A DNA stretch of 63,246 bases, the filler included, from Kipferlia bialata (taxonomy: Eukaryota): the NCBI GenBank assembly GCA_003568945.1. It is 4 parts of 4 records of this genome, joined end to end, with 100 filler letters (N's around TTAATTAATTAA, not from the genome) between each part and the next. Parts side by side here need not be neighbours in the genome. Positions count along the whole stretch, not along the records: positions 1 to 22,044 come from BDIP01000308.1; 3 more parts are not named here. One strand, 5' to 3'. A program made the position numbers and the translations under genes. Below are positions 583 to 44,233 of this stretch, piece by piece; the first letter of the stretch is position 1; each line of letters begins with the position of its first letter. The notes under the pieces were generated by a model that was not told where the DNA came from, searched no databases, and saw only the letters and a program-made list of their open reading frames with translations.

Positions 583-1144
583 ACTCACAGGGACTGTGAG
601 AATAGTACAACAGCAATGCTCGACCCCAGACTACACCCTTTTGTCGTTTGTTGTGAATCCCAAATTGAACACGGTACCCAGTGATCACAGTCCAGTGAAG
701 ACCACAGCCTTGCAATCCCAGGGACACGAGTGATATGCACCAAGTGTGTCGTCTTGTGTCTCCACAGGGACATTCAATAGTTTTCAAACACAGACGGCCG
801 GCCAACAGGAGGACACTATGACTGCGTCACCCTTTGGAGCAAAAACTCAGAGACGTACGCACTACTCAGTACCACTCATTCCTCTTCCAGTTGAACTGCA
901 TGTTACCCATAAGTGTATTGTCTCCGGACATTCTCACTGTGTGCAGAATGGTGGTCAATGTGTTTGGGTCCTCACTAGAGTGATCACATCTTGGATGGGA
1001 GGATCGTTCACTCAAGTTGGTGCTCTACTGTAGACCATCATGTCAGGCAGACAGGCCAATACTGTACACCCCAAGGTCGTGTATTGGTGAACCCGCTGTG
1101 ATCACCATCCCCCTCTTCATCTAGTGTCAGTGGCGTAGCCCACA

Positions 1145-4100
1145 ATGGACCCTGATCCAAAGCCCAATCCACCCAATCCAATCAGAGCCATGATTGATAG
1201 ACTGGTTGGCGGAGCCCCTGTGACTGGGGGTGCCCCTGCCTCGTGCCTCACTAGTAGTACTGTCTCTGACCAGATCCCCAATGGTGCCGGGGAGGTCCAG
1301 TGCCCACAACACAACACCTCTAGAAGTGACCCTAGGCCTGCCCTCCCAACAGGTATGAATCCAGGAGTGTCCAGTGGGTCTACCAATTTGTACCCGATGA
1401 TGGTAGTTACAGTCTCTCCTGTCTATGTCTAGCATATACATAATCTATTCCCCAGCTCTCTCATCCCAGATGCGATACTGGACTGTGGTGTATCCGTAGA
1501 GACGGAGCGACACGCTGCCCGAGGTACTATCCTTCCCCATTATCATGGTATACACGGTCTCTGCTGTTTCTCATTCTACCCCCCTCTCCCACCATCGCCA
1601 CAGATTTCTCTCCTATTATGAGGTCTGTGTATATTCTTCCCACCACAGGTATTCCCTCCCACGACATGCCTCTGGCCCCTGCACACCGCTCCATCGACCC
1701 CTCTGTAGGCCGCTGCCTCGACCCCTCGGGCCCTTTCTCCTCTGTCTCTCCTGCCCCTGCAGCTACTACAGAGGTGGGATGTCCAGTAGAGACCAACCTT
1801 CTGAGCAGTGAGACTGGGACAGAGGACGCTGACAACCCCATGCTCGGTGACCAGCCCCTTGACACAGACACTCCCCTTGTCACATACAGCCCCCTCTCCT
1901 ATGACCACCAAGACCCTGGTGTCCCTGATGTAGAGTATGAGAGTGCTCACCTGTCCACTGCCACTCCCTCCGTCCCCACCCCCTCGGACATCCACACTGA
2001 GGACGGTGCTGGTGGTGCAGACGGTGGGGACGTTGACATGCTCATGGGTGACCACAGCCAGTCCCCCAGCCACTGGGGATGTAGCAGCCCCTCCACCACA
2101 CCACGCCCACTACCCCAGGCCGTAGGGGATGATAGAGGCAGGGAGAGAGTGAGGGAGAGGGAGAGAGAGGGTGTGGCTGACAGAGACATAGAGGAGGAGA
2201 GGGAGAGGCGTGAGTGGGAGCATGAGCAGGCTGCTCATCATGCCCATCTTTTGAGTGATGGAGAGAGGGCAGCAGACATGGAGATTGAGGGAGAGGAGGA
2301 GAGGGAGAGGCGTGAGTGGGAGGAGGAGCAGGCTGCACTGCGTGAGGCCGAACTCATGAGGGAGAGAGAGAGGCAGAGAGAAGAGGAGGAGCGCAAGAGA
2401 GCAGAGTGGGAGGCTGAGAAGCAGCGCCGCAGGGAGGAGGAGGCCCGGCTTGCGATGGAGAGAGAGAGAGAGGCCGCCAAGCAGAGGGAGTGGGAGAGAC
2501 AGAGGCAGGAGCAGGAGAGAGAGAACAGGGAGAGAGAGGAGGAGAGACTTCGTCTGCAGGAGGAGAGGGATGCTGCCTGGGAGAGAGAGAAGGCCAGGCG
2601 GAGACAGGTCAGGGAGGACAGGAGGAGAAGAGAGGCGGAGGAGAGGAAGAGACTGGAGGAGGAGCAGGACAGAAGAGAGAGGGAGCAGTGGGAGAGAGAG
2701 CAGGCCGGTCTGGTGCAGCCCATCCAGTCCAACCCCTCTCCTGCCCGTCTGCCTCTCCCTGGCACTGCACAGCTACCCCTTTCCACTCATGGGCATGCTC
2801 CTGGAGGTCCCTACCAGTACCCTCGTACTGACAGTGACCAGAGTGCCTACCACCACCCCCTTAGTGATAGAGAGAGGTACCCATCCAGCTCTCCAGACCA
2901 GGCGTCCCAAGAGCCCCTGTCACAGCCTGCTGTCCCCCAGTACCCACAGCCTATTGCCCCCCTCCAGACCCCCCAGTACTCATGGGACCACCAGGTCGGG
3001 AAGGATGCAGCAACACCCCTTCAGGACATGCCCCCTCAGGACCATTCACGGCACCAGTCTCAGGACCAATACTGGCCCCAGGACCAGGGTCAGGGCAAGC
3101 CCGGGGTTGGGCCCGACTATCATGTGGCACCCTCCCAGAGGGAGCAGTCACCTGCCCTTCCCCCCCCTCTCATGCAGCTTGACAACACATACCCCCTGGA
3201 GTCCAAGGCAGCCAGCTCCCTCAGACGCCAGTTCAGGGGCAAGGGGGACATTGTCTACTACGAGAGCCTCGGGGTGCTAGTAGCCATCGACATACCCCAG
3301 GACAGACTGAAGCCTGTCCACAGCAGCCCTCCACCCTGGGTGAGGAAGGCAGTGAAGGGCCCCCAGCTCTCCTACAAGTGGGTCCCCCTGGAGCCGAGGT
3401 GCTACCTGACAATCGACGTCAACATCACTGCCACCACAGAGGACCTTGAGAAGGCCCTAGTCGGGGCTGTGGAGGATTTGGGTGACTGCAACCTGAGGGT
3501 GAGTACTGTATCGAGGGAGGAGCATGTGGCCATGTCTGTCACACCACGCCACCAGATGCTGGGGCTCTCCGGTCGGTACAAGGTGTATATATTGACTACA
3601 GATGCCACTGAGGCAGCTGTGAGTGCCCTAGATGACCTTGTCACAAGCGATGGGTTTGAGGCTGAGGTGGGGGGGACTGACGCCACCCTACGTGTGTACC
3701 CGCACTGGGAGAGGTTCCACGTCAAGGGACTGAGTGAGTCTGCATGCGGCGCCCATCCTCCCCCAGCTGTAGTGTCTGACACACTGGATGATATGCTGCT
3801 AGAGGTGGAGCGGAGGGTGAGGGGGGTGAAGGAGGTCAAGACTAGGCAGATGGCCATACCCGACATCTCCCACTTCCACCACGACCCCGTCCTGCCCTCG
3901 GCCGCATACTTTGTGGTCACCAACAAGACCACTGCTGCTGTACTGAGACAGAGTCAGTTCAAGTCAGAGACTGCCAAGGCGATGCAGCGTCTACCAGTGG
4001 GCTCCAACGTCCTCTCAGTCTCCCCCCGACCCATTACCTACCACGTGCTTCTAGTCAACACCACCCACACCAACATCACCCCCTCCCTCAGTGACAGTGC

Positions 4101-7100
4101 CTGTGGTGCACTGGAGGGAGAGGTGCTGAGGGCAGTGGCCGAGCACGAGGTGCTTGGGGTCCCCTGTGCAGAGGAGTACCTCTCGGTGGAGACCCACGGC
4201 AGGGACTTTGTGCTGTACTACACCAACAGTGATGACTACAGTCGTATCAACTACATGGTGCTGGCAGAGCACGATGTCTCAGTCACTATCGGGGGGGATG
4301 TGTATAGGGCGCAGATGCCTGCCACCCTATCCTCTGCGCCTATGGCACGTCTGCCTGAGCCTGATGTCCTCAGTACCCTGTCTGCAGTATCCCGTGTGTC
4401 AAGAGAGACTGTGCAACACAAGGGGTGGGACGAGAGGTCTATGCCCCCCAAGGTCGATCTCACAGACGAGCACAGGGTGTTTGTGCAGGTATGATAGTAT
4501 TGCGTCTGATATCAGTGGGCTTGTTAGTTCCATGTAGAGTGCATCAGTCGGATATCAACCTTATGACAGGCCCATACCCTGGCTAGAGTCAAGGAGGGTG
4601 TCTATGCCGTCAAAGGCAAGTCCCACCGGATCCCCAAGGTCGGCACCACAACAGCCTATTCTGCTGTGCGCCTCTTCAAGAGACCCTCCCCTGAGTATCT
4701 CAGGCGTCCACACAGGAACACGTGTGTGGACGTGGTTAATGTAGACTCAGTCACTGCCGGTGTGGCCCAGACAGCTAGGGGGAAGAAGGTATACGTCATT
4801 GTGTATGTCTCTATCTGTCACTCAGTTGCTCACTTCTAGGTAGCCGTTCTCAACTTTGCCAATGAGAGGAGACCCGGGGGTGGGTATCTGCATGGAAGGA
4901 GCGCCCAGGAGGTAAGAATAGTTCATGTATAGTATCAGCTCCGTATCTGCTTCACTGACTGTTTCAGGAGGAGCTCTTCCGTCGCACCAACTACGTCATG
5001 AGTCTCGATCCCTCTCAGGTGAACCATGGTGCTGAAGCCCCTGTGCAGTACCCCTGGCACTCCCCTGCTGCTGCCCAGATGGACGGGGAGGCCAGGTGCA
5101 CAGATGTGGTGGTGTCAGAGGACGTCACTGTCATCAGGAAGGGGTCGGAGGATGGGTATGCCATGATGCCCCCTGTGACCCTTACCATGATAGCTACAGC
5201 AGCACCCGACAAGCCAGACACCAGGCCCAGCGGCACAGGAGCCCAGGTATATGCAGACCCCAAGCAGGCTGCGACCCTCATAGCCAGAGTGCACGGAGTG
5301 CTGCGTGCTGCTGTATACCACAAGGTCGACAGGCTGATACTGGGGGCCCTTGGGTGCGGTGCCTTCAGGAACCCCCCAGCTGAGGTGGTCAGTGTGTTCG
5401 AGGCCCTTCTCCCCACCTACCTACCCTACTTCGAGAGGGTCACCTTTGCGGTGCTAGGTGACGACAACTACGATGCCTTTGCCCCCCTCAGGTCCGTGAG
5501 CCCAGTACCGATCAAGAGGGCCAACATGAGACCCGTCTGCAGGGAGTTCCACTCTCTCAACACTGAGGAGGGAGGGGGATTCTGCCCATCGTGTAGAGAT
5601 GCCGACCATGCTAAGAGGTTTTGGCACCCCAGGGTCTGTAAAAGCGCTGACGGACGCAAGTGCCCACAGAATGACTCTGCGGTGCATATGGCCCTCTACA
5701 TGCACAAGCGGCCCTGCCCCGAGTGGGAGAGGTGCAGGGATTGCAGCAGGAGGGCGAGGGAGGACGAGAACAACGTCCACTGTGCCCTCTACTCCCACCC
5801 TGACTTCTGCGACGGTGGTGCCAGGTGCCAGGACTTCACCCCCGAGCACTGTCGTGAGTGGTGGCACCCGGCCACATGCAACGACGGGGTGGACTGTATG
5901 GATACCGATGAGATCCACCTGATGCGGTTCAGACACCCTAGGAGAGACACAGCCTGCAACTTTGGGGCCGTGTGCTGTGACCTCAGTGCCTCCCACAGAC
6001 ATGTATGCTCCCATCCTGTCAACATTATTAACCCTGACCCCTTCGCTGCCCCCCTGTACCCTAGCAGAAAGGACTCTGGTGTCTCAGCCTGCCCTCACGG
6101 TTGGCTGTGCACCAAGCTTCAGGCCTATCTGGGTGGATCGAAGGCCCGAGATGTGATGCGCCATATCAAGGAGTCCCTCCACCTACCCCGTGCCCAATGT
6201 GATCCCAGACGCTGTCCTATGAATGTGCCTAAGATTGACCCTGCGGCTGTAGAGCAGCACCTCTGGGAGTTCTCCCACAAGGACATTCCAGACATCAGAC
6301 TTATGTGCCGTAATAGGTCAGCGTGTAGGAGGAGGGGCGATCTCAGCCACATCCAGAAGTACTGCCACGCACCAGAGCTGCTGCCCGTCTCCCAGTTCAT
6401 AGAGAGGAGAGACGTGGACTTTAGGGCCAACCACTGCTACGTCAGGGGACAGATCCGCGAGAAGAGAGGCAATGAGGGTCTGAGGCAGCTTGTCGACAGC
6501 TTCCTCCCCACTCACCGTCTCAATGCATCCAAGCTTGAGCTGGTCCTCGCCACTGGGTACTTCATGTCTCTCAGAAACATGGAGAGACTGGGAGACCCCT
6601 GGTTCCTGGCAGACACCGCCAAGCTGAACCCAGTGGTGCATACATTCCAGGCCAGCCACCAGACAGTGGTTGCTGAATTCCTCCATGCACACACCATAGC
6701 AGCACATGCTAAGAAAGCAGGGACCCCTGTCACACGCACTGTCGAGGACACCCTTAAGGAGTGCCGCATGAATCTGGCAGTCATCGACAAGAAGGCCATC
6801 AAGCACCTGGAGAAGGTGAGCACTCGGATTGTAGAGGCTGCGGCCTCTCTAGATGCAGACCCTGAGAAGGGCATAGGGTATGACGTCGACAAGGCCATCA
6901 ACACAGATGACACAGTCTTCACCAACGTAGGTCCCAACACCTTCAACAGGTATGGCGAGATCCACGTCACCTTCCGCCAGTCCCTGATGCGCCACCCCAA
7001 CAGCTATCTGCATTGGTCGGCTGGGACCCTCTACGTAACCCAGCCCTCTCTCCCCCTGAGGGGACACGTACATCTACCTGGGGACGGAAGGGCATCCGCT

Positions 7101-10100
7101 CCCTTCAGCCCAGAGAGACTGGAGAACTACAGGAGGAGCAGACTGTCACTCGCTGAGGCTGGCACCTCACAGCTACTTGCAGACGACCTGCATGCGATAC
7201 TGAGTCACGAGCATGGGCCTGTGAACCCAGAGCAGGCCATGAGGCGATGGACCGGGGACTCACACTGGAACAGCCACTATGTGCTGGAGGGCCACCTACC
7301 CCCCACTGTGGGACTTGGCTACATCCACAGCATCACTATGGACAAGGCAACCCACAAGGGGCTGTCACCAACGACCAAGGAGGCATTGAAGGTACCCAAT
7401 GTTACCCCAATTTGCGCATATATGTATATATACCCCTCTGTAGTCCCCCAACCCCCAGGACTTGCAGTGCCACCTAGTCCTGACAGACAAGCCCATCACC
7501 GACCCGGAGAGTGCGGCTGAGGCCTACAGGCAGTCCTGCCTTGGGGTCCCGATGCCCCCAGGGTACCAGTTCACAATGTCAGGGGCCAAGGTCAGCATCC
7601 CCACCACACTCCACCTTGACAGACTATCAGGGGATAGGAGGGCATACATACGCTTCTCCTGCATTGGTGATGTGCTGCTGCAGATAGCCCCCCGAGACGC
7701 AGTGGAGGGAGACCCTTGCAGGACACTGAGGTTCACAGAGAGCAGGGTGGAGATCACGAGGAACTACATAGCAGTTGCTAGACAGGACAGACAGAGTGGT
7801 CTCAGCGCTATGTACATGTCCCACCCTTCCCTGGACGCTGTGTCTTACAGGAGCTATGTGGTCACAGTGTCCCGCTCCTCACTGGAGGTGAGGCGGGTGG
7901 GGCATCAGAAGCAGACCGTGATGCAGCCTCTAGAGGAGACGGACTCTCACCTGTTCTCAAGGAAGGACCACATAGTGACCTTTGCCACTGTCTCAGTGCC
8001 AGATCTGGCCAGTATCAGCGGGTGTGTGATTACCAACAACCGACGTGAGATATCCTATGTGGAGCCTATAAGGGAGGAGGACCCTTGTGTGAGACGTGCC
8101 AGGGAGAGAGGGAGTGCTGTTCACAGGAGGGTGCATGGGCACACTAGTGGTCCCAGGGTGCCTGGTGCCCTACCTGTGTGCCAGTACGCTGCCTGCTGCA
8201 GGTTGGCCCACTTGGACAGAGACCCCACACACATAGCTAAGTACAGACACGTGTGTCCCCTAGGTCCAGTGTGTCCAGAGAGGACGAACCCCACACACGT
8301 GCGGCAGTTCATCCATGCCACCCGGCCTGTGTGCAACCTTGGCATCAGGTGTCCAGACATAGGTGACCGCACCCACAGGCTGAGCCACCACCACCCAGGG
8401 ACGTTTGAGTTCTATGGCAAGACGAGACGGATCCCAGACGTGCCATATGCCTGTAGCAAGGGAGAGAGCTGTGGGGGGAAGAGATACGCTGGTCACCTGG
8501 CAGAGTTTTCCCACTGGCCCCTAGACCGCCACGTACCGGAGTGCCCTATGGAGGATGACGTGCCAGTGCCAGCCTCTGAGGGCACAGGCAGGGGCCAGAG
8601 GGGACACGGTGGAGACTCCAAGCGCCTTGTCTGCAAGCACGGACTGAAGTGCAAGCATCTGGGTGATCGGGACCACAGGGTGAAGTACCATCACCCAGGG
8701 ACATTTGAGTACAGAGGGAGGGAGAGGCACATAGCCGACAACCCCGTTCCCTGCAAGGATGGGCCTAGCTGTAAGGGAATAGGGTTCCCTGCCCACCTGG
8801 CCGAGTTCTCTCACTGGCCCCTCACCCCCACTACCAGTGCACAGCCAGACATTGTAGAGCCCCAGGGATACGACGGCGGTATCAGTGCTGTAGCCTCCCA
8901 CGTCCCATACACCCCCCCTCGCATTGAGCCTTCCACCCAGGGCCCTAGGTCTGTGTGTACGCTGGGTCTGGAGTGCCCTAAGCTGGGTGACCGCACCCAC
9001 CGGGAGACCCACACCCACCCAGCCACATTCCAGCACAACGGTAGGGAGAGGCGCATCAGGGATGATCCCATTGTGTGTAAGCACGGCAAGAAGTGCAGGG
9101 GGCTGAAGTACCCCGGTCACCTTGCAGAGTACTCGCACTGGGGGTCAGGGCCTGCCGCACCCAAGGCTAGGTACAAGACCAAGCCCCAACCCAGAGAGAG
9201 AGAGGAGAGAGAGAGGGAGCACGGACCCACCAACCCTCCACCCATCGTGACCAATGAGCCCGTTAAGCTATATGGTTCCTACACTGGTGGCTTCGATGTC
9301 CCGTCACTAGCACCCACCTACTCAGGAGGTGATACTATGTGTGTGTCTTCTGTTGGGAGGGACAACGTGAAGAGGGAGAGGGAGCCGAGGAAGAGAGAGA
9401 GGGAGACGCCCACCTACGGTGCTGGCCGTCATGTCTCCTCCTACATCACTGCTGCCTCGCATGCCTCTGCAGGGTATGCCCCAGGCGACAGGGACCTCTC
9501 TGTGTGCTTTGTGATGGACGTCACAGGGTCTATGGGGAGCTACATCACTGCCACTGCCAAACAGGTTGTCAAGATGGCCCAGGAGCTGCAGAAGTACTGT
9601 GAGAACAAGGGGTCTGGGGACGGGTACAGACACGCCGTCAAGGCCTTCTTCTCCTACGTAGGGTACAGAGACATCAGAGACTCCAAGGCTGTGGAGGTGT
9701 GCGACTTTGGCCCCATACCCACCCTTCAGTCCTTTGTACAGGGTATGAGGCCTACGGGAGGGGCGGATGTACCAGAGGACATAGCGACTGGCCTCGACGC
9801 TGCCCTCAACTTCAGGTGGGGCAAGGGGCACAGGATGGTTGTTGTCCTGGCCGATGCCCCCAACCACGGGAAGGGGTTCATGCACACTGTACACAGGGAT
9901 GACTACCCAGAGGCTGACCAGCACGGGGTGGCCTGGAGCGACAGACTGGACGCCATCATCAGAGCCTCTGACCCCCTCGACATGAACTATGTGTTTGTCC
10001 CTGTGGGGTCTCTGACCGGGGTGCTAGACCCCATGGTAGACTACTTCAAGGGTCACCTCAAGGGGGGGAGGGGCAGGGTGCACAAGCTCCACCTGGCCTC

Positions 10101-10176
10101 TGCGGGTGAGGGGATGCTATCTCTTATCAGACAGGTGCTGCAGAAGTCATACGACTCTTTCCTTACTAACCTGTGA
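1145..10176 (+). CDS. Giant multidomain protein (~2844 aa): low-complexity/ER-rich N-terminus, bacterial-type PARG (DUF2263/TIGR02452 macrodomain), PBZ-like zinc finger arrays, putative ART-fold domain, C-terminal vWA
   Basis: Hand-spliced exons 1145-1352, 1470-1523, 1649-4488, 4570-4788, 4840-4911, 4968-7391 and 7459-10176 are all GT-AG, phase-compatible and total 8535 nt. Motifs: VAVLNFANERRPGGGYLHGRSAQE|EELFRRTN, LILGALGCGAFRNPP, repeated Cx5C..Hx5H fingers, FVMDVTGSMG. The start codon is uncertain; a short upstream exon from the ATG at ~1040 is possible. Confidence 0.85.
8329..9141 (+). repeat. Three in-frame copies of a ~63-aa double zinc-finger unit inside the giant gene
   Basis: Copies at ~8329-8520, ~8629-8820 and ~8953-9141 share the pattern VC..G..C..(I/L)GDR.HR...HHP.TF...G..R.I.D.P..C..G..C.G...(A/G)HLAE(F/Y)SHW. 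Confidence 0.85.
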
Positions 10177-14789: not shown

Positions 14790-17137
14790 TCACACAAACA
14801 CGCTAGGGGGCAGGACTGCCTTGCCGTGGTCGGCCTTGAGCAGGGCCAGCTCTGTCTTGAGCCTGGTGTGCTGGGCTGTCCACTCCTGGGGCATCGCCTC
14901 TGCGGCATAGAAGGCGTCCATCCTGTCCAGCTTGGCCAGGTAGGCATCCACCCGCACGCTGAACTGGGCGTCGTACTCGGCCTGGGTGTACACCCTGCCC
15001 TCAAAGTGGGCGGCAAAGAGGGCGCGGAGGTCGTCGTACTTCGGGATGAGGCCGATGGGTGTGGTTATGGCCCCGTACTGCTTCCTCACCCTGCCGGCAG
15101 TCCAGGCCAGCCACACCTCCTTGTCCAGCTGAGGGTGAGGGGGGGTACGTGTGGGAGTGGCAGGAGTATACTATACTATCATGTATATGTATGTATGTAC
15201 CTTGGTGTTGAGGAACTGACCGTCCTCCCCCCTGAGGAAGTAGTTGGTGCCAAAGACCCTGGGGGCCTTGTCACCTAGGGTGGCGCCAAACTTGATGTGG
15301 TTGGCGACATACATATCCAGGGGCACGATGAGGAAATCCATGTTTGCAAAGGGACTGGCCTTGCGCACACCCTCCTGAGGTAAGAGAGGGAGAGAGGGAG
15401 TAACGATACACATACTGATTAGATATATATCTAAAAGCACCCACCTTGCCGAGAGTGGCAGCTGTGGTCTCCGACTCGATGCCGCTTCCGATCCACACCC
15501 CGTGCTGCCAGGACAGAGACTCCAGCACAGCAGGGGTGCAGGAGGCATCCCTACCCCCGTAGAGCACAGCCTCCACAGGCACGCCAGAGGCGTTGTGGAG
15601 CTCCTTGGAGGCGTTGGGCAGCTCTGAGATGCGGAGGGTGAACCTGCTGTTCCCATGGCTGACGGGCTTGTCAGATGGGGTCCATGCCCCAGCGTGGTTG
15701 GTGCCCTTGGCCGGGAGGGACACGCCCTTGCCCATGCCTGTCCAGTAGGGCTTGCCGTCGTCCCCCTTGAGCACGTTGGAGAAGATGATCTCTCTCTCCT
15801 CGCCCAGGACACGGCTGATGACGGGGTCGTCCTTGGCATTCACATCCTGGGGGTGAGGCAAGGAATAGGAGGGGAGAGGGAGAAGTATATATATACCCAC
15901 CTTGATGATGCCGAAGATGCCTGCCTCGATGTTGACGGCCTTGGCGACACCGTCAATGTTGCGCATGTATATGATGTCGTCCCCCACAATGGATGACCCC
16001 CTGGACATGGCGGTGCTGGTCTTGCCACACGCTGAGGGGTAGGCCCCGGCCATGTACACCTCCTCTCCCCCGGCAGGTGGCTTGTAGGAGGCCAGGAACA
16101 TGTGCTCTGTCAGCCAGTCAGAGTGGTTGGCCTGGTGGATGGCAAGGCGAAGGGCAAGCTTCTTGCAGGCCAGGGTGTTACCGGCGTAGGAGCAGCCGTA
16201 GGAGAAGGTGCGCAGTCCCTTGGGGTCGATGTAGATGCGGCGGTGAGGGATGTCGGAGGGGTGGCCGTCCTTGTCAAGGGGTCCCGAGGCGTGGATGAAG
16301 TGGTAGAAGGCGCCCTTGTCCTCCATCTGCCTAAAGTGCTCGAAGCCCGGCCTGTACAGGATGGCCTGGCTGTGCAGCACGTAGTAGGAGTCTGTGAACT
16401 GCACTGCGGCACGGCTGAACTCGGAGTGCACTGGGCCCAGGCAGTAGAAGGCCACGATCAGGGTGCGGTCCTTCATGCTGCCCTTCATCAGACCCTGGAC
16501 CTGAAGGTGAGGAAGGGGGAGGGGAGGAAGTGTAGGAAGGGGACGTTGACCAAGAGAGAACCCCACCTCATTGATGCCCTGGTCCCTGTCCTCGGTGTTG
16601 ATGCCGGCAGACACCCTCTCACCTGGGGACAGAAGGACAGCAGTGTGCAGCTTGTCTCTGGCCTGTGGTAAGTGGTTAAACACTGATTCACATATTCGTC
16701 CATCGAAAGACGGTGCCATGAGCTGTGGACCACCAATTACAACCAGATGCCACACATACCTGGTCCTGGGGTCCGTCGAAGTGGATGGTGTGGCCCTTAG
16801 TAGCCAGAGAGGTCTCCTGGCCACTGGGGGTGAGTCAGGGAGCCAATAAATAACAAATGAAGCAGTCGTCAATACTCGTAAACGGCATGCTTGTCTCGCA
16901 ATTATTGGAAAAAGACGACATTGCAAGAGAATAGGCCACTAGCAACGCCCCAACCCCTCGTACTGCATACCTAGAGAGTGCCATCTGTGCAATGTAGGCC
17001 TGGTCCTCTGCAGAGTCCGTGGCAATGAAGACATCCTTGGGCTCTAGGAGGGTCACCATCCTGTGCACCAGAGTCTCCAGGGCCTCGTTGGCCAGGGGGG
17101 CCAGCTTCTGCAGGTAGGGGGCGGTGTCCTTGGTCAT
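14790..17137 (-). CDS. pckG: Phosphoenolpyruvate carboxykinase (GTP-dependent), multi-exon
   Basis: Motifs VQFTDSYYV, YAGNTLACKKLALR, WLTEHMFL, kinase-1a GAYPSACGKTSTAM, kinase-2 VGDDI, HGNSRFT, LYGGRD, ESETTAA, PFANMDF, FGTNYFLRGEDGQFL, TPIGLIPKY. Confidence 0.97.
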
Positions 17138-17983: not shown

Positions 17984-20402
<2,419 letters not shown>

Positions 20403-22044: not shown

Positions 22045-22144
22045 NNNNNNNNNNNNNNNNNNNNNNNNNNNNNNNNNNNNNNNNNNNNTTAATTAATTAA
22101 NNNNNNNNNNNNNNNNNNNNNNNNNNNNNNNNNNNNNNNNNNNN
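22045..22144. other. Artificial scaffold-joining linker (N44-TTAATTAATTAA-N44)
   Basis: 100-nt block with six-frame stop oligo TTAATTAATTAA at 22089-22100; identical blocks occur elsewhere in the window. Confidence 0.95.
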
Positions 22145-38869: not shown

Positions 38870-41569
38870 ATGCCCCGCAAGGTGGCAATGTCGTCCCGGC
38901 CTAACTCTCAGCACCTCTCCAGGGGGAAGAATACACTCAATCGTCGCTCCAGCCCAGCCCTCCCTCGTCTGACCCCACCTGTGTCGCCCTCGACCCCCCA
39001 TGCCGTGCTGGAGGTGCTGCCTGCTGACATGGAGCTGTCCCTAGGGGGGGCCGGGGCAAGGGAGTCTGAGTGGGTGAGAATGGGGCCCGACACCGACGTG
39101 GTCAGTCCCGACGGCTATGTGGTGAGGGTGAGGGGGGAGAGCGAGGGAGAGGACACCGAGGATGGGGAGAGTGAGGTGGAGTGTGACCCCCCTACCACCC
39201 ACCGTCCCATGGTCTCTACCCACATGCCCGGCCTCAGAAGCAGTGCCATCCTAGCCATGACCCCCGACCTCGGCCTGTCCCACCCCCCATTAGCATATGG
39301 GAGTGGTGCCCAGCCCCCCCTCTCCCCTACCTGGGGTCTGCAACGCAGTCCCAGCCACCTGTCCTATGATGCCCTGGTGCAGAGGCAGAGGGAAAGGGAT
39401 AGGCAGAGGGAGGAGGGAGAGGGAGGGAGGGAGAGTGGGACATCAGGCAGCGACTCAGGTGGAGGGATGGTGGGTAGCAAGCCCTGGCCCAGTCTGGAGG
39501 AGCTGACCCTTGCCGCGTCTGTGTCTGAGAGACAGTTCCAGATGGTGGTGGGCAAGGTGGCAGGGATAGAGAGGACCCTGGAGAGAGACAGGGAACGGGG
39601 GAGAGAGAGGGAGAGGGAGAGGGAGAGGCTGCGCCGGATGGAGAGAGGCCGGCGTCTGTGCCAGGATATGGAGGCCCAGGCCAGGCGGAAGGCAAGGGCG
39701 GGCACCCGCAGGCCACAACTGGGGGTGGTCGGACCCCCTGCCCCCCCCGCCCCCAGGAGGAGAGAGAGAGCCCCGCCCTCCGATGCACAGATGCACAGGA
39801 GGTACAGGCGGCGGATGCAGGCTGACGCAAGGGGGAGGATCAGGAGACAGAAGGGGTATGCGAAGGAGGATGAGAGGCTGAGGAGACAGGAGGAGAAGGA
39901 GGATGCCCGGATAGCTGCCAGCCACGCACGTGCTGACCACTGGTGGAAGCAGGACAAGCGGAGACGGCTCTGCCTTGGGTTAGGGTGTGTGTGTGTGCTC
40001 CTGTCGGCTCTATATGTAGGGTATAGGAGTGTGTCTGCATGGAGTGTATCCTCTGGGGACCCCCTATTTGACCCTCCCTCCCTGCTTGTGCTGTATGTGT
40101 GTCTCTCCCTGTCTCTCGAGGCTCTCAGCTGCTGCGGGGCCATCCGCCTGGCAGTCTGTGTGCATCTGACCAGGTGGAGCACCCTCCTCTCCACCCTATT
40201 CTCTGTTGTCAGGGTGCTGCCGTGGGACAGGGCGTGGGGTGCCTCCCAGACCCTGTCCAACATGGCAGAGGCAACTGGCCTCACGGGCCTCATTACTGCT
40301 CTCTGCCTCTTCTACCCAGGCTCTGGTAGCTCTCTGGCTGTGTCAGTGTGTGTCCTGCCCCTTCTTCAGCTGGGTGCCGCATCTGCGTTCTCCTGCCTCG
40401 AGCGACGCCCCCTGCTAGTGTCCCTCATTGCCACCTTCACCCTGGGCATGGGGACCTGTGCATGTGCAGGGGCCGGAGGGGGGGGGGCGAGTGTCAGCCG
40501 AAGGATGCCTCAGGGCATCGGTGTCAGACGCAGGGTCAGTCCGAGTCTCACCAGTAGCCGTACCAGCATCACTCTTGCCCACCCTTCGAGGCTGCCCACC
40601 CTTCGTGGCACCCTGTCTCCCTCTGACCTAGGCCCTGGCAGTGCCCCTCACACAGCCGCTGGGGCTGGTGGGGATGGGCTGGTGGCTGGGCCTGCCATCG
40701 ACAGACACGGTAGCCTACTCGACTCCATTTACAGGTAGATATATATGTATGGGTATGGTGTATGCAAGTGGGGTATATACATCCTCTTGAGTTGTCTTGA
40801 TGCATACACTTGATATCCGTCATTGTGTCTCCTCCCCACCCTCAGGCTGGGCCCCGGCTATGCACTGGACCCTTCCGTCGAGACCCACCACGTCATACGC
40901 ATGCTGCCTGTCCCTGGCCATGGGTGGGGTGGGGGCAGTGTCAGTAAGGCCCTGCTGGCAGCTGTGACAGAGGTGTTTGTGGGACTGGAGGGGACTGCCG
41001 TCTTCCGCGGCTCTGTCACCAGGCCCCGACTGAGGTGGGGCATCCGGCGCTTTGGGGCCTATGCCACCCCCCTCTTCGGCCACTGTGTCGTGGATGTGCA
41101 CTTCACCCCCCGCCCCCTGCACACAAGGGGTGGGTGTGAGCCAGTGGAGGGGGACGACTCCGATGTCGAGCGGCTCTTGACTGCTAGAGATGTCAGGGTG
41201 CAGGTGGAGAGAGTGACGGTGGCAATCAAACGCATCGATCGCTCGCCCACCAGGCGTGACCTCCCTCCCCTGATATCCCATGCGTGGGTGCTGTCGCCTA
41301 GTCTCCCTGGCAGTGCAAGGAGAAGAGTGGACACCTTCATCGCCCCTAGCATTGGCGGCGGGTACTCTCGGACAGAGGCGAGAGTGGAGAGACAGAGGGC
41401 AAGGGCCGAGAGACATGCGATGCTGGCCGAGGACAGATCGGCTAGGGAGGTGGCAATAGGGGCTGCGTGTACGGCCAGGGAGGAAGATATTGCAGCGGCC
41501 CATACAAGACACTTGGCGAGGTCGATGCTGAGTATTCTGTCCCACAGTCCCAAGACCAAGAAGAGATAA
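38870..41569 (+). CDS. Hypothetical multi-pass membrane protein with disordered/coiled-coil N-terminus
   Basis: Exon 38870-40734 (phase 2) joins exon 40846-41569 in frame (IYR|LGPGY). There are several hydrophobic segments at ~39970-40460. The start codon is uncertain. Confidence 0.65.
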
Positions 41570-44133: not shown

Positions 44134-44233
44134 NNNNNNNNNNNNNNNNNNNNNNNNNNNNNNNNNNNNNNNNNNNNTTAATTAATTAANNNNNNNNNNN
44201 NNNNNNNNNNNNNNNNNNNNNNNNNNNNNNNNN
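44134..44233. other. Artificial scaffold-joining linker
   Basis: TTAATTAATTAA at 44178-44189 flanked by 44 N on each side. Confidence 0.95.

What the first reader, a model, noticed from the sequence alone, without database searches (positions are those of the whole stretch)
1145..10176. Candidate all-in-one ADP-ribosylation machine: eraser (PARG), ~17 readers (PBZ), putative writer (ART) and vWA in one ~2844-aa protein
Seen in sequence: three long ORFs listed separately (1618, 4998, 7462) join through canonical, phase-correct introns plus small exons the ORF track misses. The order is disordered/ER-rich region, alpha/beta region, macrodomain, 9 fingers, ~280-aa globular domain, beta-rich region, 8 fingers, vWA. 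Established knowledge: the GGG-x6-8-QEE macrodomain is the bacterial-type PARG family, and PBZ fingers (APLF/CHFR type) bind poly(ADP-ribose). Inference: the central domain is an ADP-ribosyltransferase. If so, this resembles a fused toxin-antitoxin (DarT/DarG-like) or a self-regulating ADP-ribose signalling or defence protein. I do not know this architecture as a characterised system. Its very large exons (2.4-2.8 kb) also stand out against the micro-exon genes nearby.
Basis: partly seen in the sequence, partly recalled or inferred. Interest (0 to 1): 0.92.

Follow-up and report, generated by a model that had tools for sequence, protein, structure and literature searches.

The report
Eukaryotic effector-like ART fused to PARG
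This spliced protist gene encodes one 2,844-residue protein that joins a poly(ADP-ribose)-cutting domain, 17 zinc fingers and a domain predicted to fold like bacterial ADP-ribosylating effectors (OspC, SopF, DarT), and it belongs to a widespread eukaryotic family that likely writes an ADP-ribose mark of its own.

Summary
Observation confirmed. Seven exons give 2,844 aa, identical to the deposited Kipferlia bialata protein GIQ81104.1. One intron-free RNA contig carries PARG through vWA; the link to the N-terminal third rests on a 12-nt overhang. The PARG is bacterial-type with an intact GGG-x7-QEE. There are 17 CCHH fingers; none matches the strict PBZ consensus, but the family profile hits APLF PBZ. 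The central domain, folded with an alignment (pLDDT 91.8), has an ART fold. All 8 of 48,161 PDB chains with Z>=8 are OspC3, CopC, SopF or DarT. It keeps an H-F-E triad, the OspC-like E-x-H and a near-invariant Asp, but has Ala where OspC3 has D231 (placed by hand). The beta region is Methyltransf_FA-like. The PARG-fingers-ART-beta-fingers core recurs in metamonads, Archamoebae, Euglena, Diphylleia and bdelloid rotifers, with both active sites kept in 31 of 33. PARG+PBZ (rotifer) and writer-reader-eraser fusion (PARP14) are known; I found no description of this ART. A self-reversing toxin-antitoxin is doubtful: bacterial PARG cuts polymer, the fold neighbours are mono-ARTs, and paralogues lack PARG. 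Activity and substrate are untested.

The parts
1145..10176 (+). Gene for the 2,844-aa protein (7 exons: 1145-1352, 1470-1523, 1649-4488, 4570-4788, 4840-4911, 4968-7391, 7459-10176)
   Evidence: translation identical to P0001 = GIQ81104.1
1145..2118 (+). aa 1-244, Pro/Ser/Asp-rich, probably disordered (spans introns 1-2)
   Evidence: composition; no match in 144 homologues
2119..2706 (+). aa 245-440, Glu/Arg-rich (32% E, 26% R), likely long helix or coiled coil, followed by a Pro/Gln-rich linker to aa 600
   Evidence: helix is inferred
3184..4488 (+). aa 600-1034, alpha/beta region, unidentified; looks RRM-like by eye only
   Evidence: no hit in Pfam, NCBIfam or homologue search; no match to the homologues' upstream profile, score at shuffle level
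4573..5504 (+). aa 1036-1310, bacterial-type PARG; GGG-YLHGRSA-QEE at aa 1120-1132 (split by intron 5), GCGAF loop at aa 1260-1264
   Evidence: PF10021 70.9 bits vs cut-off 23.5; TIGR02452 57.9 vs 50; DrPARG E 2.5e-10, TcPARG E 7e-7
5538..6368 (+). aa 1322-1598, nine CCHH (PBZ-like) zinc fingers
   Evidence: Cys/His columns nearly invariant in alignment A2
6390..7391 (+). aa 1606-1939, ART-fold domain of the OspC/SopF/DarT group with a helical insertion; H1647, D1772, F1782, Y1793, H1901, E1905, H1907
7543..8046 (+). aa ~1968-2135, beta-rich domain like Pfam Methyltransf_FA (PF12248); conserved behind the ART in the family
   Evidence: Atlas 0.95-0.96, 186-193 shared features; PF12248 in 4 of 49 family members, best E 1.8e-9
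8179..9138 (+). aa 2180-2499, eight CCHH (PBZ-like) zinc fingers, the last six in three repeated pairs
9493..10173 (+). aa 2618-2844, vWA domain with DVTGS (MIDAS-type, label recalled), GGADVPE and ADAPNH motifs
   Evidence: VWA_4 29.1 bits vs cut-off 27 when scanned alone; motifs; also in 4 of 144 homologues

Best explanation
The protein is an expressed fusion of a bacterial-type PARG, two arrays of PBZ-like fingers and a predicted OspC/SopF/DarT-type ADP-ribosyltransferase, and it likely works as a signal converter: the fingers would load it onto poly(ADP-ribose), the PARG would trim that polymer, and the ART would write a different, mono-ADP-ribose mark on a nearby target, probably in stress or cell-autonomous defence. 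Shown: gene structure, domain order, PARG signature, conservation of both active sites across the family. Predicted: the ART fold (about 0.95) and catalytic activity (about 0.8). Inferred: PAR binding by the fingers, mono rather than poly activity, the target, and the biological role.
For: ART fold: model pLDDT 91.8, pTM 0.89. All 8 of 48,161 chains with Z>=8 are OspC3 (Z 11.7, rmsd 4.2, 206 aligned), SopF (10.9, 3.8, 192), OspC3 (10.6), CopC (10.5) and DarT (10.3-8.7); the next three rows (7.5-7.2) include two tRNA 2'-phosphotransferases. Foldseek's top six rows are SopF, OspC3 and CopC. Atlas neighbours include DUF3841, DUF3626 and OspC. Catalytic-type residues: H1647 in 96, D1772 in 113, F1782 in 112, E1905 in 98, H1907 in 97 of 114 rows, gaps counted as misses; all seven sites intact in 74 of 88 gapless rows. 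CopC uses H137-F183-E325 plus H327 and D172 (PMC9239266, passages). Co-conservation: of 33 proteins with PARG and a gapless ART, 33 keep the PARG Glu-Glu and 31 keep all seven ART residues. PARG lies upstream in 32 of 36 hits with more than 600 aa before the ART. Converter rather than self-reversal: PARG glutamates act on the ribose-ribose bond (PMC4030884); DrPARG does not cut Glu- or Ser-linked mono-ADPr (PMC6445106); paralogues P0002 and P0003 keep the ART motifs without PARG. Defence hint: 3 K. bialata and 4 GEM-RC1 paralogues, a 34-tip clade holding the rotifer sequences, and fusions to GBP, RING, RanBP finger and kinase domains.
Against: No Foldseek E-value reaches 0.001 (best 0.08). Identity to the structural neighbours is 8-13%, and OspC3, SopF, CopC and the best DarT lie within about 1.5 Z of each other, so the substrate class is not resolved. 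The profile comparison with OspC is weak (probability 2.7%, E 0.017) and covers only the E-x-H block. The other residue matches were placed by hand, without a superposition. The conserved Asp of OspC3 (D231) is Ala in 106 of 114 rows. 0 of 17 fingers match the strict PBZ consensus and 2 a loose one; across 397 homologue fingers only 100 have Tyr or Phe at +2, so many may bind RNA or nothing. Whether K. bialata has a PARP to make polymer could not be checked (no genome held). PADLOC gave no hit. No activity was measured.
Confidence: 0.42

Rival explanations
1. Self-reversing nucleic-acid modifier (PARP14-like or DarTG-like): the ART ADP-ribosylates RNA or DNA (ends or bases), the fingers bind nucleic acid, and the PARG in cis removes the mark until a trigger such as a virus tips the balance.
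For: DarT chains align at Z 8.7-10.3 with the lowest rmsd (3.1-3.9) and Tpt1 follows. PBZ folds resemble ssRNA-binding CCCH fingers (PMC4030884, passage) and these fingers lack PAR-specific residues. Human PARG removes ADPr from RNA (PMC11920425, abstract). PARP14 combines both activities on protein and nucleic acid (PMC10499325). Both active sites are co-conserved.
Against: DarT's cognate erasers are TARG1-like DarG2 or NADAR DarG1, not PARG (PMC10789625, passages). The E-x-H and upstream Asp are OspC-like. The ART occurs without PARG in P0002, P0003 and 4 of 36 long hits. The RNA-decapping result is for canonical, not bacterial-type, PARG.
Confidence: 0.25
2. A non-PARP poly(ADP-ribose) polymerase: the ART builds or extends ADP-ribose chains, the fingers hold the chain and the PARG turns it over, giving a self-contained polymer cycle.
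For: Both companions (PARG, PBZ-like arrays on either side of the ART) are polymer-specific modules, and the order is conserved across several eukaryotic supergroups. The family has its own conserved residues (H1901, T1777, T1818, HP1807-8) not matched in OspC.
Against: Every close structural neighbour is a mono-transferase; PARP1 scores only Z 4.2. No polymerising member of this fold is known to me (recall).
Confidence: 0.13
3. An endogenous arginine ADP-riboxanase (OspC chemistry) that places a mark host hydrolases cannot remove.
For: Top structural match is OspC3. E-x-H aligns by profile. The near-invariant D1772 sits 10 residues before the triad Phe, like D177/D172, which OspC3 and CopC need (PMC11598138, PMC9239266).
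Against: The D231/D230 position appears to be Ala (106 of 114). There is no ankyrin-repeat domain. SopF, a plain ART, scores equally well.
Confidence: 0.12
4. The ART domain only binds or hydrolyses NAD+ (sensor or NADase) and the protein is mainly a PAR-binding glycohydrolase scaffold.
For: Loss of the D231-type Asp; 14 of 88 gapless rows change at least one of the seven sites.
Against: The Glu of E-x-H and the upstream Asp are strongly conserved, and the ART, not the PARG, is the part kept in all paralogues.
Confidence: 0.08

Closest known systems
Adineta vaga bacterial-type PARG with PBZ repeats (Slade 2011 as cited in Perina 2014, PMC4245714)
   Same: bactPARG followed by PBZ repeats; A. 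vaga UJR32654.1 (P0021) is in this family and has PARG, 14 fingers and the central domain.
   Different: The section and passages I read mention only PARG and PBZ, no ART or beta domain. Whether P0021 is the very protein drawn there was not checked. Slade 2011 was not read.
OspC3 / CopC ADP-riboxanases and SopF (bacterial type III effectors)
   Same: ART fold (Z 10.5-11.7); H-F-E triad, E-x-H, Asp before the triad Phe, F/Y-G motif.
   Different: 8-13% identity; helical insertion of about 90 aa; Ala at the D231/D230 position; no ankyrin repeats; intron-bearing eukaryotic gene fused to PARG and fingers; not a secreted effector as far as the sequence shows.
DarT-DarG toxin-antitoxin
   Same: ART fold (Z 8.7-10.3) joined to a macrodomain-type hydrolase.
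   Different: The hydrolase is a PARG, not TARG1-like DarG2 or NADAR DarG1; DNA substrate untested; PARG-less paralogues exist; no PADLOC hit.
PARP14 (human writer-reader-eraser, PMC10499325)
   Same: Transferase, hydrolase and ADP-ribose-binding modules in one large polypeptide.
   Different: PARP14 uses a PARP catalytic domain, MacroD-like hydrolase, macrodomain/WWE readers and RRM/KH domains. Here every module comes from a different family (PARP1 Z 4.2), so the likeness is convergent.
PBZ fingers of APLF/CHFR
   Same: C-x5-C-x6/7-H-x3-aromatic-x-H spacing; family profile hits APLF PBZ (E 3.9e-5).
   Different: 17 copies; this protein's fingers lack the strict [K/R]xxCx[F/Y]GxxC consensus.

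Membership tests
Bacterial-type PARG (PF10021/TIGR02452) | Profile score over the curated cut-off | tested here: met
   PF10021 70.9 vs 23.5 bits; TIGR02452 57.9 vs 50
Bacterial-type PARG (PF10021/TIGR02452) | GGG-x6-8-QEE catalytic loop and G-x-F-type diphosphate loop | tested here: met
   GGGYLHGRSAQEE at aa 1120-1132, GCGAF at 1260-1264; signature per PMC4030884
Bacterial-type PARG (PF10021/TIGR02452) | Hydrolyses PAR | not testable with these tools
   needs an assay
ART superfamily | Split beta-sheet ART fold | tested here: met
   pLDDT 91.8 model; 8 of 8 chains with Z>=8 are ARTs; Foldseek E-values not significant
ART superfamily | Conserved first-strand His and catalytic Glu | tested here: met
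   H1647 in 96 of 99 and E1905 in 98 of 104 ungapped rows; His equivalence placed by motif
OspC/CopC ADP-riboxanases (PF06128) | Pfam Shigella_OspC profile match | tested here: not met
   no hit for this domain or 49 family members at E<=0.5
OspC/CopC ADP-riboxanases (PF06128) | E326-x-H328 motif | tested here: met
   E1905-G-H1907 aligns with OspC E-Y-H in a weak profile alignment
OspC/CopC ADP-riboxanases (PF06128) | D177/D172 aspartate | tested here: inconclusive
   D1772 in 113 of 114 rows at a matching distance from the VF motif; placed by hand, no superposition
OspC/CopC ADP-riboxanases (PF06128) | D231/D230 aspartate | tested here: inconclusive
   hand-placed position is Ala in 106 of 114 rows; probably absent, though D1809 (84 of 114, Asn here) is nearby
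OspC/CopC ADP-riboxanases (PF06128) | C-terminal ankyrin-repeat substrate domain | tested here: not met
   no ankyrin hit; a Methyltransf_FA-like domain follows instead
DarTG toxin-antitoxin | DarT profile / defence-system model match | tested here: not met
   no Pfam or PADLOC hit
DarTG toxin-antitoxin | Antitoxin is TARG1-like DarG2 or NADAR DarG1 | tested here: not met
   the hydrolase is bactPARG; definition from PMC10789625
DarTG toxin-antitoxin | Modifies a DNA base; hydrolase binds and reverses it | not testable with these tools
   needs an assay; the complex predictor was not available
PBZ (zf-CCHH, PF10283) | CCHH spacing | tested here: met
   11 strict matches vs 0.01 expected, 17 by eye
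PBZ (zf-CCHH, PF10283) | Consensus [K/R]xxCx[F/Y]GxxC...Hxxx[F/Y]xH / Pfam cut-off | tested here: not met
   0 of 17 strict; 8.4 vs 22.7 bits. Homologues do pass: 6 of 27 over the cut-off
PBZ (zf-CCHH, PF10283) | Binds PAR | not testable with these tools
   needs an assay
PARP (ARTD) family | PARP catalytic domain | tested here: not met
   no Pfam PARP hit; PARP1 Z 4.2 against 10-12 for OspC/SopF/DarT

The most novel reading that the evidence does not exclude
This family is an endogenous eukaryotic branch of the OspC/SopF/DarT transferases with chemistry not yet seen in eukaryotes: either arginine ADP-riboxanation, so far described from bacterial effectors, or poly(ADP-ribose) synthesis by a non-PARP fold. 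It would form a PARP-independent ADP-ribose circuit in one chain, spread across metamonads, amoebae, euglenids, CRuMs and bdelloid rotifers.
Probability: 0.25. Interest if true: 0.93.

Novelty: new variant of a known kind. Interest (0 to 1): 0.78.

Why it matters
The eukaryotic ADP-ribose writers in the reviews I read are PARPs, ARTC enzymes and Tpt1 (plus sirtuins, recalled); the OspC/SopF/DarT fold is described there from bacteria. Here it is an intron-bearing, transcribed eukaryotic gene family with a conserved active site, hidden inside proteins annotated only as 'microbial-type PARG'. That gives a testable new writer class, explains the unannotated middle of the rotifer PARG-PBZ proteins, and offers a convergent parallel to PARP14. 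Adineta vaga is a workable model for testing it.

Tried and rejected
Single-sequence fold of the central domain failed (pLDDT 38). Word-index homologue searches found nothing for the central domain (it also missed the 44%-identical paralogue P0002, so it is insensitive) or for aa 600-1034, and one known member with the profile. Sequence searches of PDB with the central domain, its profile, the second finger array and the vWA gave nothing significant. No viral structure reached E 0.001 and there was no phage tblastn hit. The locus search in prokaryotic and viral contigs could not run on this alignment, so prokaryotic relatives are not excluded. RRM identity of aa 600-1034 was not supported by profile comparison; homologues have a conserved region there that looks RRM-like by eye. 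Runs X2 and X3 held next to none of the gene, which is no evidence either way. No whole genome is held. The complex predictor was not available, so PARG-ART contact is untested. Earlier-findings look-ups returned nothing. Separate genes for the long ORFs: rejected from PARG to vWA by one RNA contig, and made unlikely for the N-terminal part by the junction overhang, similar contig depths (40.6-57.4) and full-length homologues. Literature searches that found no description of this ART or fusion; term searches inside PMC9503650, PMC10789625 and bioRxiv 2026.10.11.758280. The library lacks most subscription papers and I read no supplements, so an earlier mention (for example in Slade 2011 or ART surveys) is possible.
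Full report
Gene structure. Seven exons joined at GT..AG introns of 51-125 nt give one 2,844-aa frame. The same protein came back from the representative library as P0001, identical letter for letter, and is deposited as Kipferlia bialata GIQ81104.1, annotated only as a CHP02452 / microbial PARG protein. K. bialata is a fornicate metamonad. Run X1 holds 93% of the sampled words. The tool only guesses that it is RNA and marks it as the same sample, but its contigs lack the introns. A 5,791-nt contig covers 4567-10490 without introns 4-6, so PARG, both finger arrays, the central domain, the beta domain and vWA are on one spliced molecule. Intron 3 is crossed by only 12 letters. Introns 1-2 fit a 55-letter gap in another contig. 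No contig spans the whole gene.

PARG. PF10021 scores 70.9 bits (cut-off 23.5) and TIGR02452 57.9 (cut-off 50). The nearest structures are D. radiodurans and T. curvata PARG. The signature GGG-x7-QEE (PMC4030884, passages) is intact and is assembled across intron 5.

Fingers. Seventeen CCHH units (9+8) are present; 11 fit a strict spacing expected 0.01 times by chance. None fits the published PBZ consensus and two fit a loose one; Pfam gives 8.4 bits against a cut-off of 22.7. Family members do pass: 6 of 27 scanned exceed the cut-off, 9 of 49 match at E<=0.5, and a 17-sequence profile hits the APLF PBZ structures at E 4e-5. They are PBZ-derived; PAR binding by this protein is unproven.

Central domain. 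Pfam, NCBIfam and PDB sequence searches were blank. phmmer over 1.84 billion representatives gave 145 hits at E<=0.001, the query included; 142 match a profile built from them. With a 49-sequence alignment (48 of the 144 homologues, chosen short enough to align) AlphaFold2 gave pLDDT 91.8 and pTM 0.89. Foldseek found nothing at E<=0.001, but its first six rows are SopF, OspC3 and CopC, with DarT at rows 11-33. In the Foldseek-independent search all 8 of 48,161 chains with Z>=8 are ARTs: OspC3 11.7 (rmsd 4.2, 206 aligned), SopF 10.9 (3.8, 192), OspC3 10.6, CopC 10.5, and DarT 10.3, 10.0, 9.7 and 8.7. The first clearly unrelated row is at 6.9 (confirmed, where PARP1 scores 4.2). The Atlas independently listed DUF3841, DUF3626 and OspC clusters at 0.89-0.90, which are leads only.

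Active site. In 114 aligned rows (31 of 145 dropped by a length filter) the conserved residues are P-x-H1647-R, G..S1665, D1772 (113), T1777, F1782 (112), Y1793-G, H-P1808, A1816, H1901 and E1905-x-H1907-L-P. CopC uses H137-F183-E325 with H327, D172 and D230 (PMC9239266, passages). OspC3 uses D231 for the first step and D177 for deamination (PMC11598138, first 10,000 characters). A profile alignment with three natural OspC sequences is weak (probability 2.7%, E 0.017) and matches only the E-x-H block. Placing the other motifs by hand gives H143~H1647, D177~D1772, VF~VF1782, F211-G~Y1793-G and D231~A1816 (OspC3 named). So the domain works like this clade but cannot be filed as an OspC.

Other parts. 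The beta region resembles Methyltransf_FA and is conserved behind the ART; its role is unknown, perhaps substrate or ligand binding (inference). The vWA passes VWA_4 narrowly when scanned alone and occurs in 4 of 144 homologues. Residues 600-1034 stay unidentified.

Family. 40 of 145 hits carry PARG; many hits are fragments, and among the 36 with more than 600 aa upstream of the ART, 32 have it. Of 35 aligned PARG domains (2 of 37 dropped by length) 33 keep QEE and all keep EE. Of 33 with a gapless ART, 31 keep all seven ART sites. Of 30 hits looked up, 19 carry an organism label, all eukaryotic: Kipferlia, isolates TZLM1-RC and GEM-RC1, Pelomyxa, Mastigamoeba, Euglena, Diphylleia, the rotifers Adineta, Rotaria and Didymodactylos, and one red-algal transcriptome label. 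Eleven have none. A FastTree tree of the 114 rows (midpoint root, local support only) groups the three K. bialata copies (0.97) and places them with TZLM1-RC and GEM-RC1 (0.90); the labelled rotifer sequences lie in a 34-tip clade (1.0). Accessory domains vary: GBP GTPase in P0062 (P0121 just under the cut-off), RING and RanBP fingers in rotifers, a kinase in P0003. P0002 looks TPR- and kelch-like by eye. P0002 and P0003 keep the ART motifs and have no PARG.

Mechanism. The ART is the constant core, and the PARG is its usual but not obligatory partner. PARG glutamates cut the ribose-ribose bond, DrPARG leaves Glu- and Ser-linked mono-ADPr (PMC6445106, passages), and the ART's neighbours are mono-transferases. 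Simple self-reversal on protein therefore fits poorly. I favour a converter: fingers load on PAR, PARG trims it, the ART writes a distinct mark (0.42). Rivals are reversible nucleic-acid modification (0.25; human PARG decaps ADPr-RNA, PMC11920425 abstract; DarTG background in PMC8883491 and PMC10789625, passages), a non-PARP polymerase (0.13), a riboxanase (0.12) and a sensor or NADase (0.08). Defence versus DNA repair is open: paralogue expansion and GBP/RING fusions point to defence, while PBZ points to DNA damage (PMC4245714; PMC6264785, passages).

Novelty. bactPARG with PBZ repeats is reported for Adineta vaga (PMC4245714, section 3.2 read whole). A writer, reader and eraser in one chain is known from PARP14 (PMC10499325, abstract and passages; PMC10470015, listing only). 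Eight searches found no account of an OspC/SopF/DarT-type ART in these proteins or in eukaryotes; subscription papers and supplements were not seen. Verdict: a real, conserved, apparently undescribed eukaryotic ART family inside a known kind of machine; interest 0.78.

Noticed in passing
window 15274-16938 (-): GTP-dependent PEP carboxykinase gene; 555 codons stay open through several apparent short introns (Pfam E 1.8e-62).
   Followed up: partly
window 18282-20188 (-): Class II aminoacyl-tRNA synthetase with OB anticodon domain, lysyl-type by eye.
   Followed up: partly
window 33892-34401 (+): SF-assemblin / beta-giardin-like coiled coil, below the Pfam cut-off.
   Followed up: partly
window 58950-59576 (+): NSD-like PHD finger.
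   Followed up: partly
window 56143-56637 (-): Kelch-like fragment (weak DUF1668 / Kelch hits).
   Followed up: partly
window 38831-40735 (+): A 635-codon open frame with an E/R-rich stretch and hydrophobic segments, no Pfam hit; shows that large exons are not unique to this gene.
   Followed up: partly
window 896-1144: The RNA contig begins about 250 nt upstream of the ATG, next to an apparent minus-strand gene at about 1-900; long 5' leader or overlap of divergent transcripts.
   Followed up: no
window 22045-22144, 44134-44233, 58720-58819: Paired 44-nt N runs 12 nt apart; the deposited contig for the gene is 22,044 nt, so the window looks like several scaffolds joined end to end and neighbours beyond 22044 may be unlinked.
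   Followed up: partly
P0002, P0003 (K. bialata paralogues): Same finger-ART-beta core fused to a TPR-like start and kelch-like end (by eye), or to a protein kinase, without PARG.
   Followed up: partly
P0062, P0121: Family members with an N-terminal guanylate-binding-protein GTPase domain ahead of PARG and ART (P0121 from Pelomyxa just under the cut-off).
   Followed up: no
P0047: A member with intact PARG signature but all seven ART sites changed (possible pseudo-ART or misalignment).
   Followed up: no
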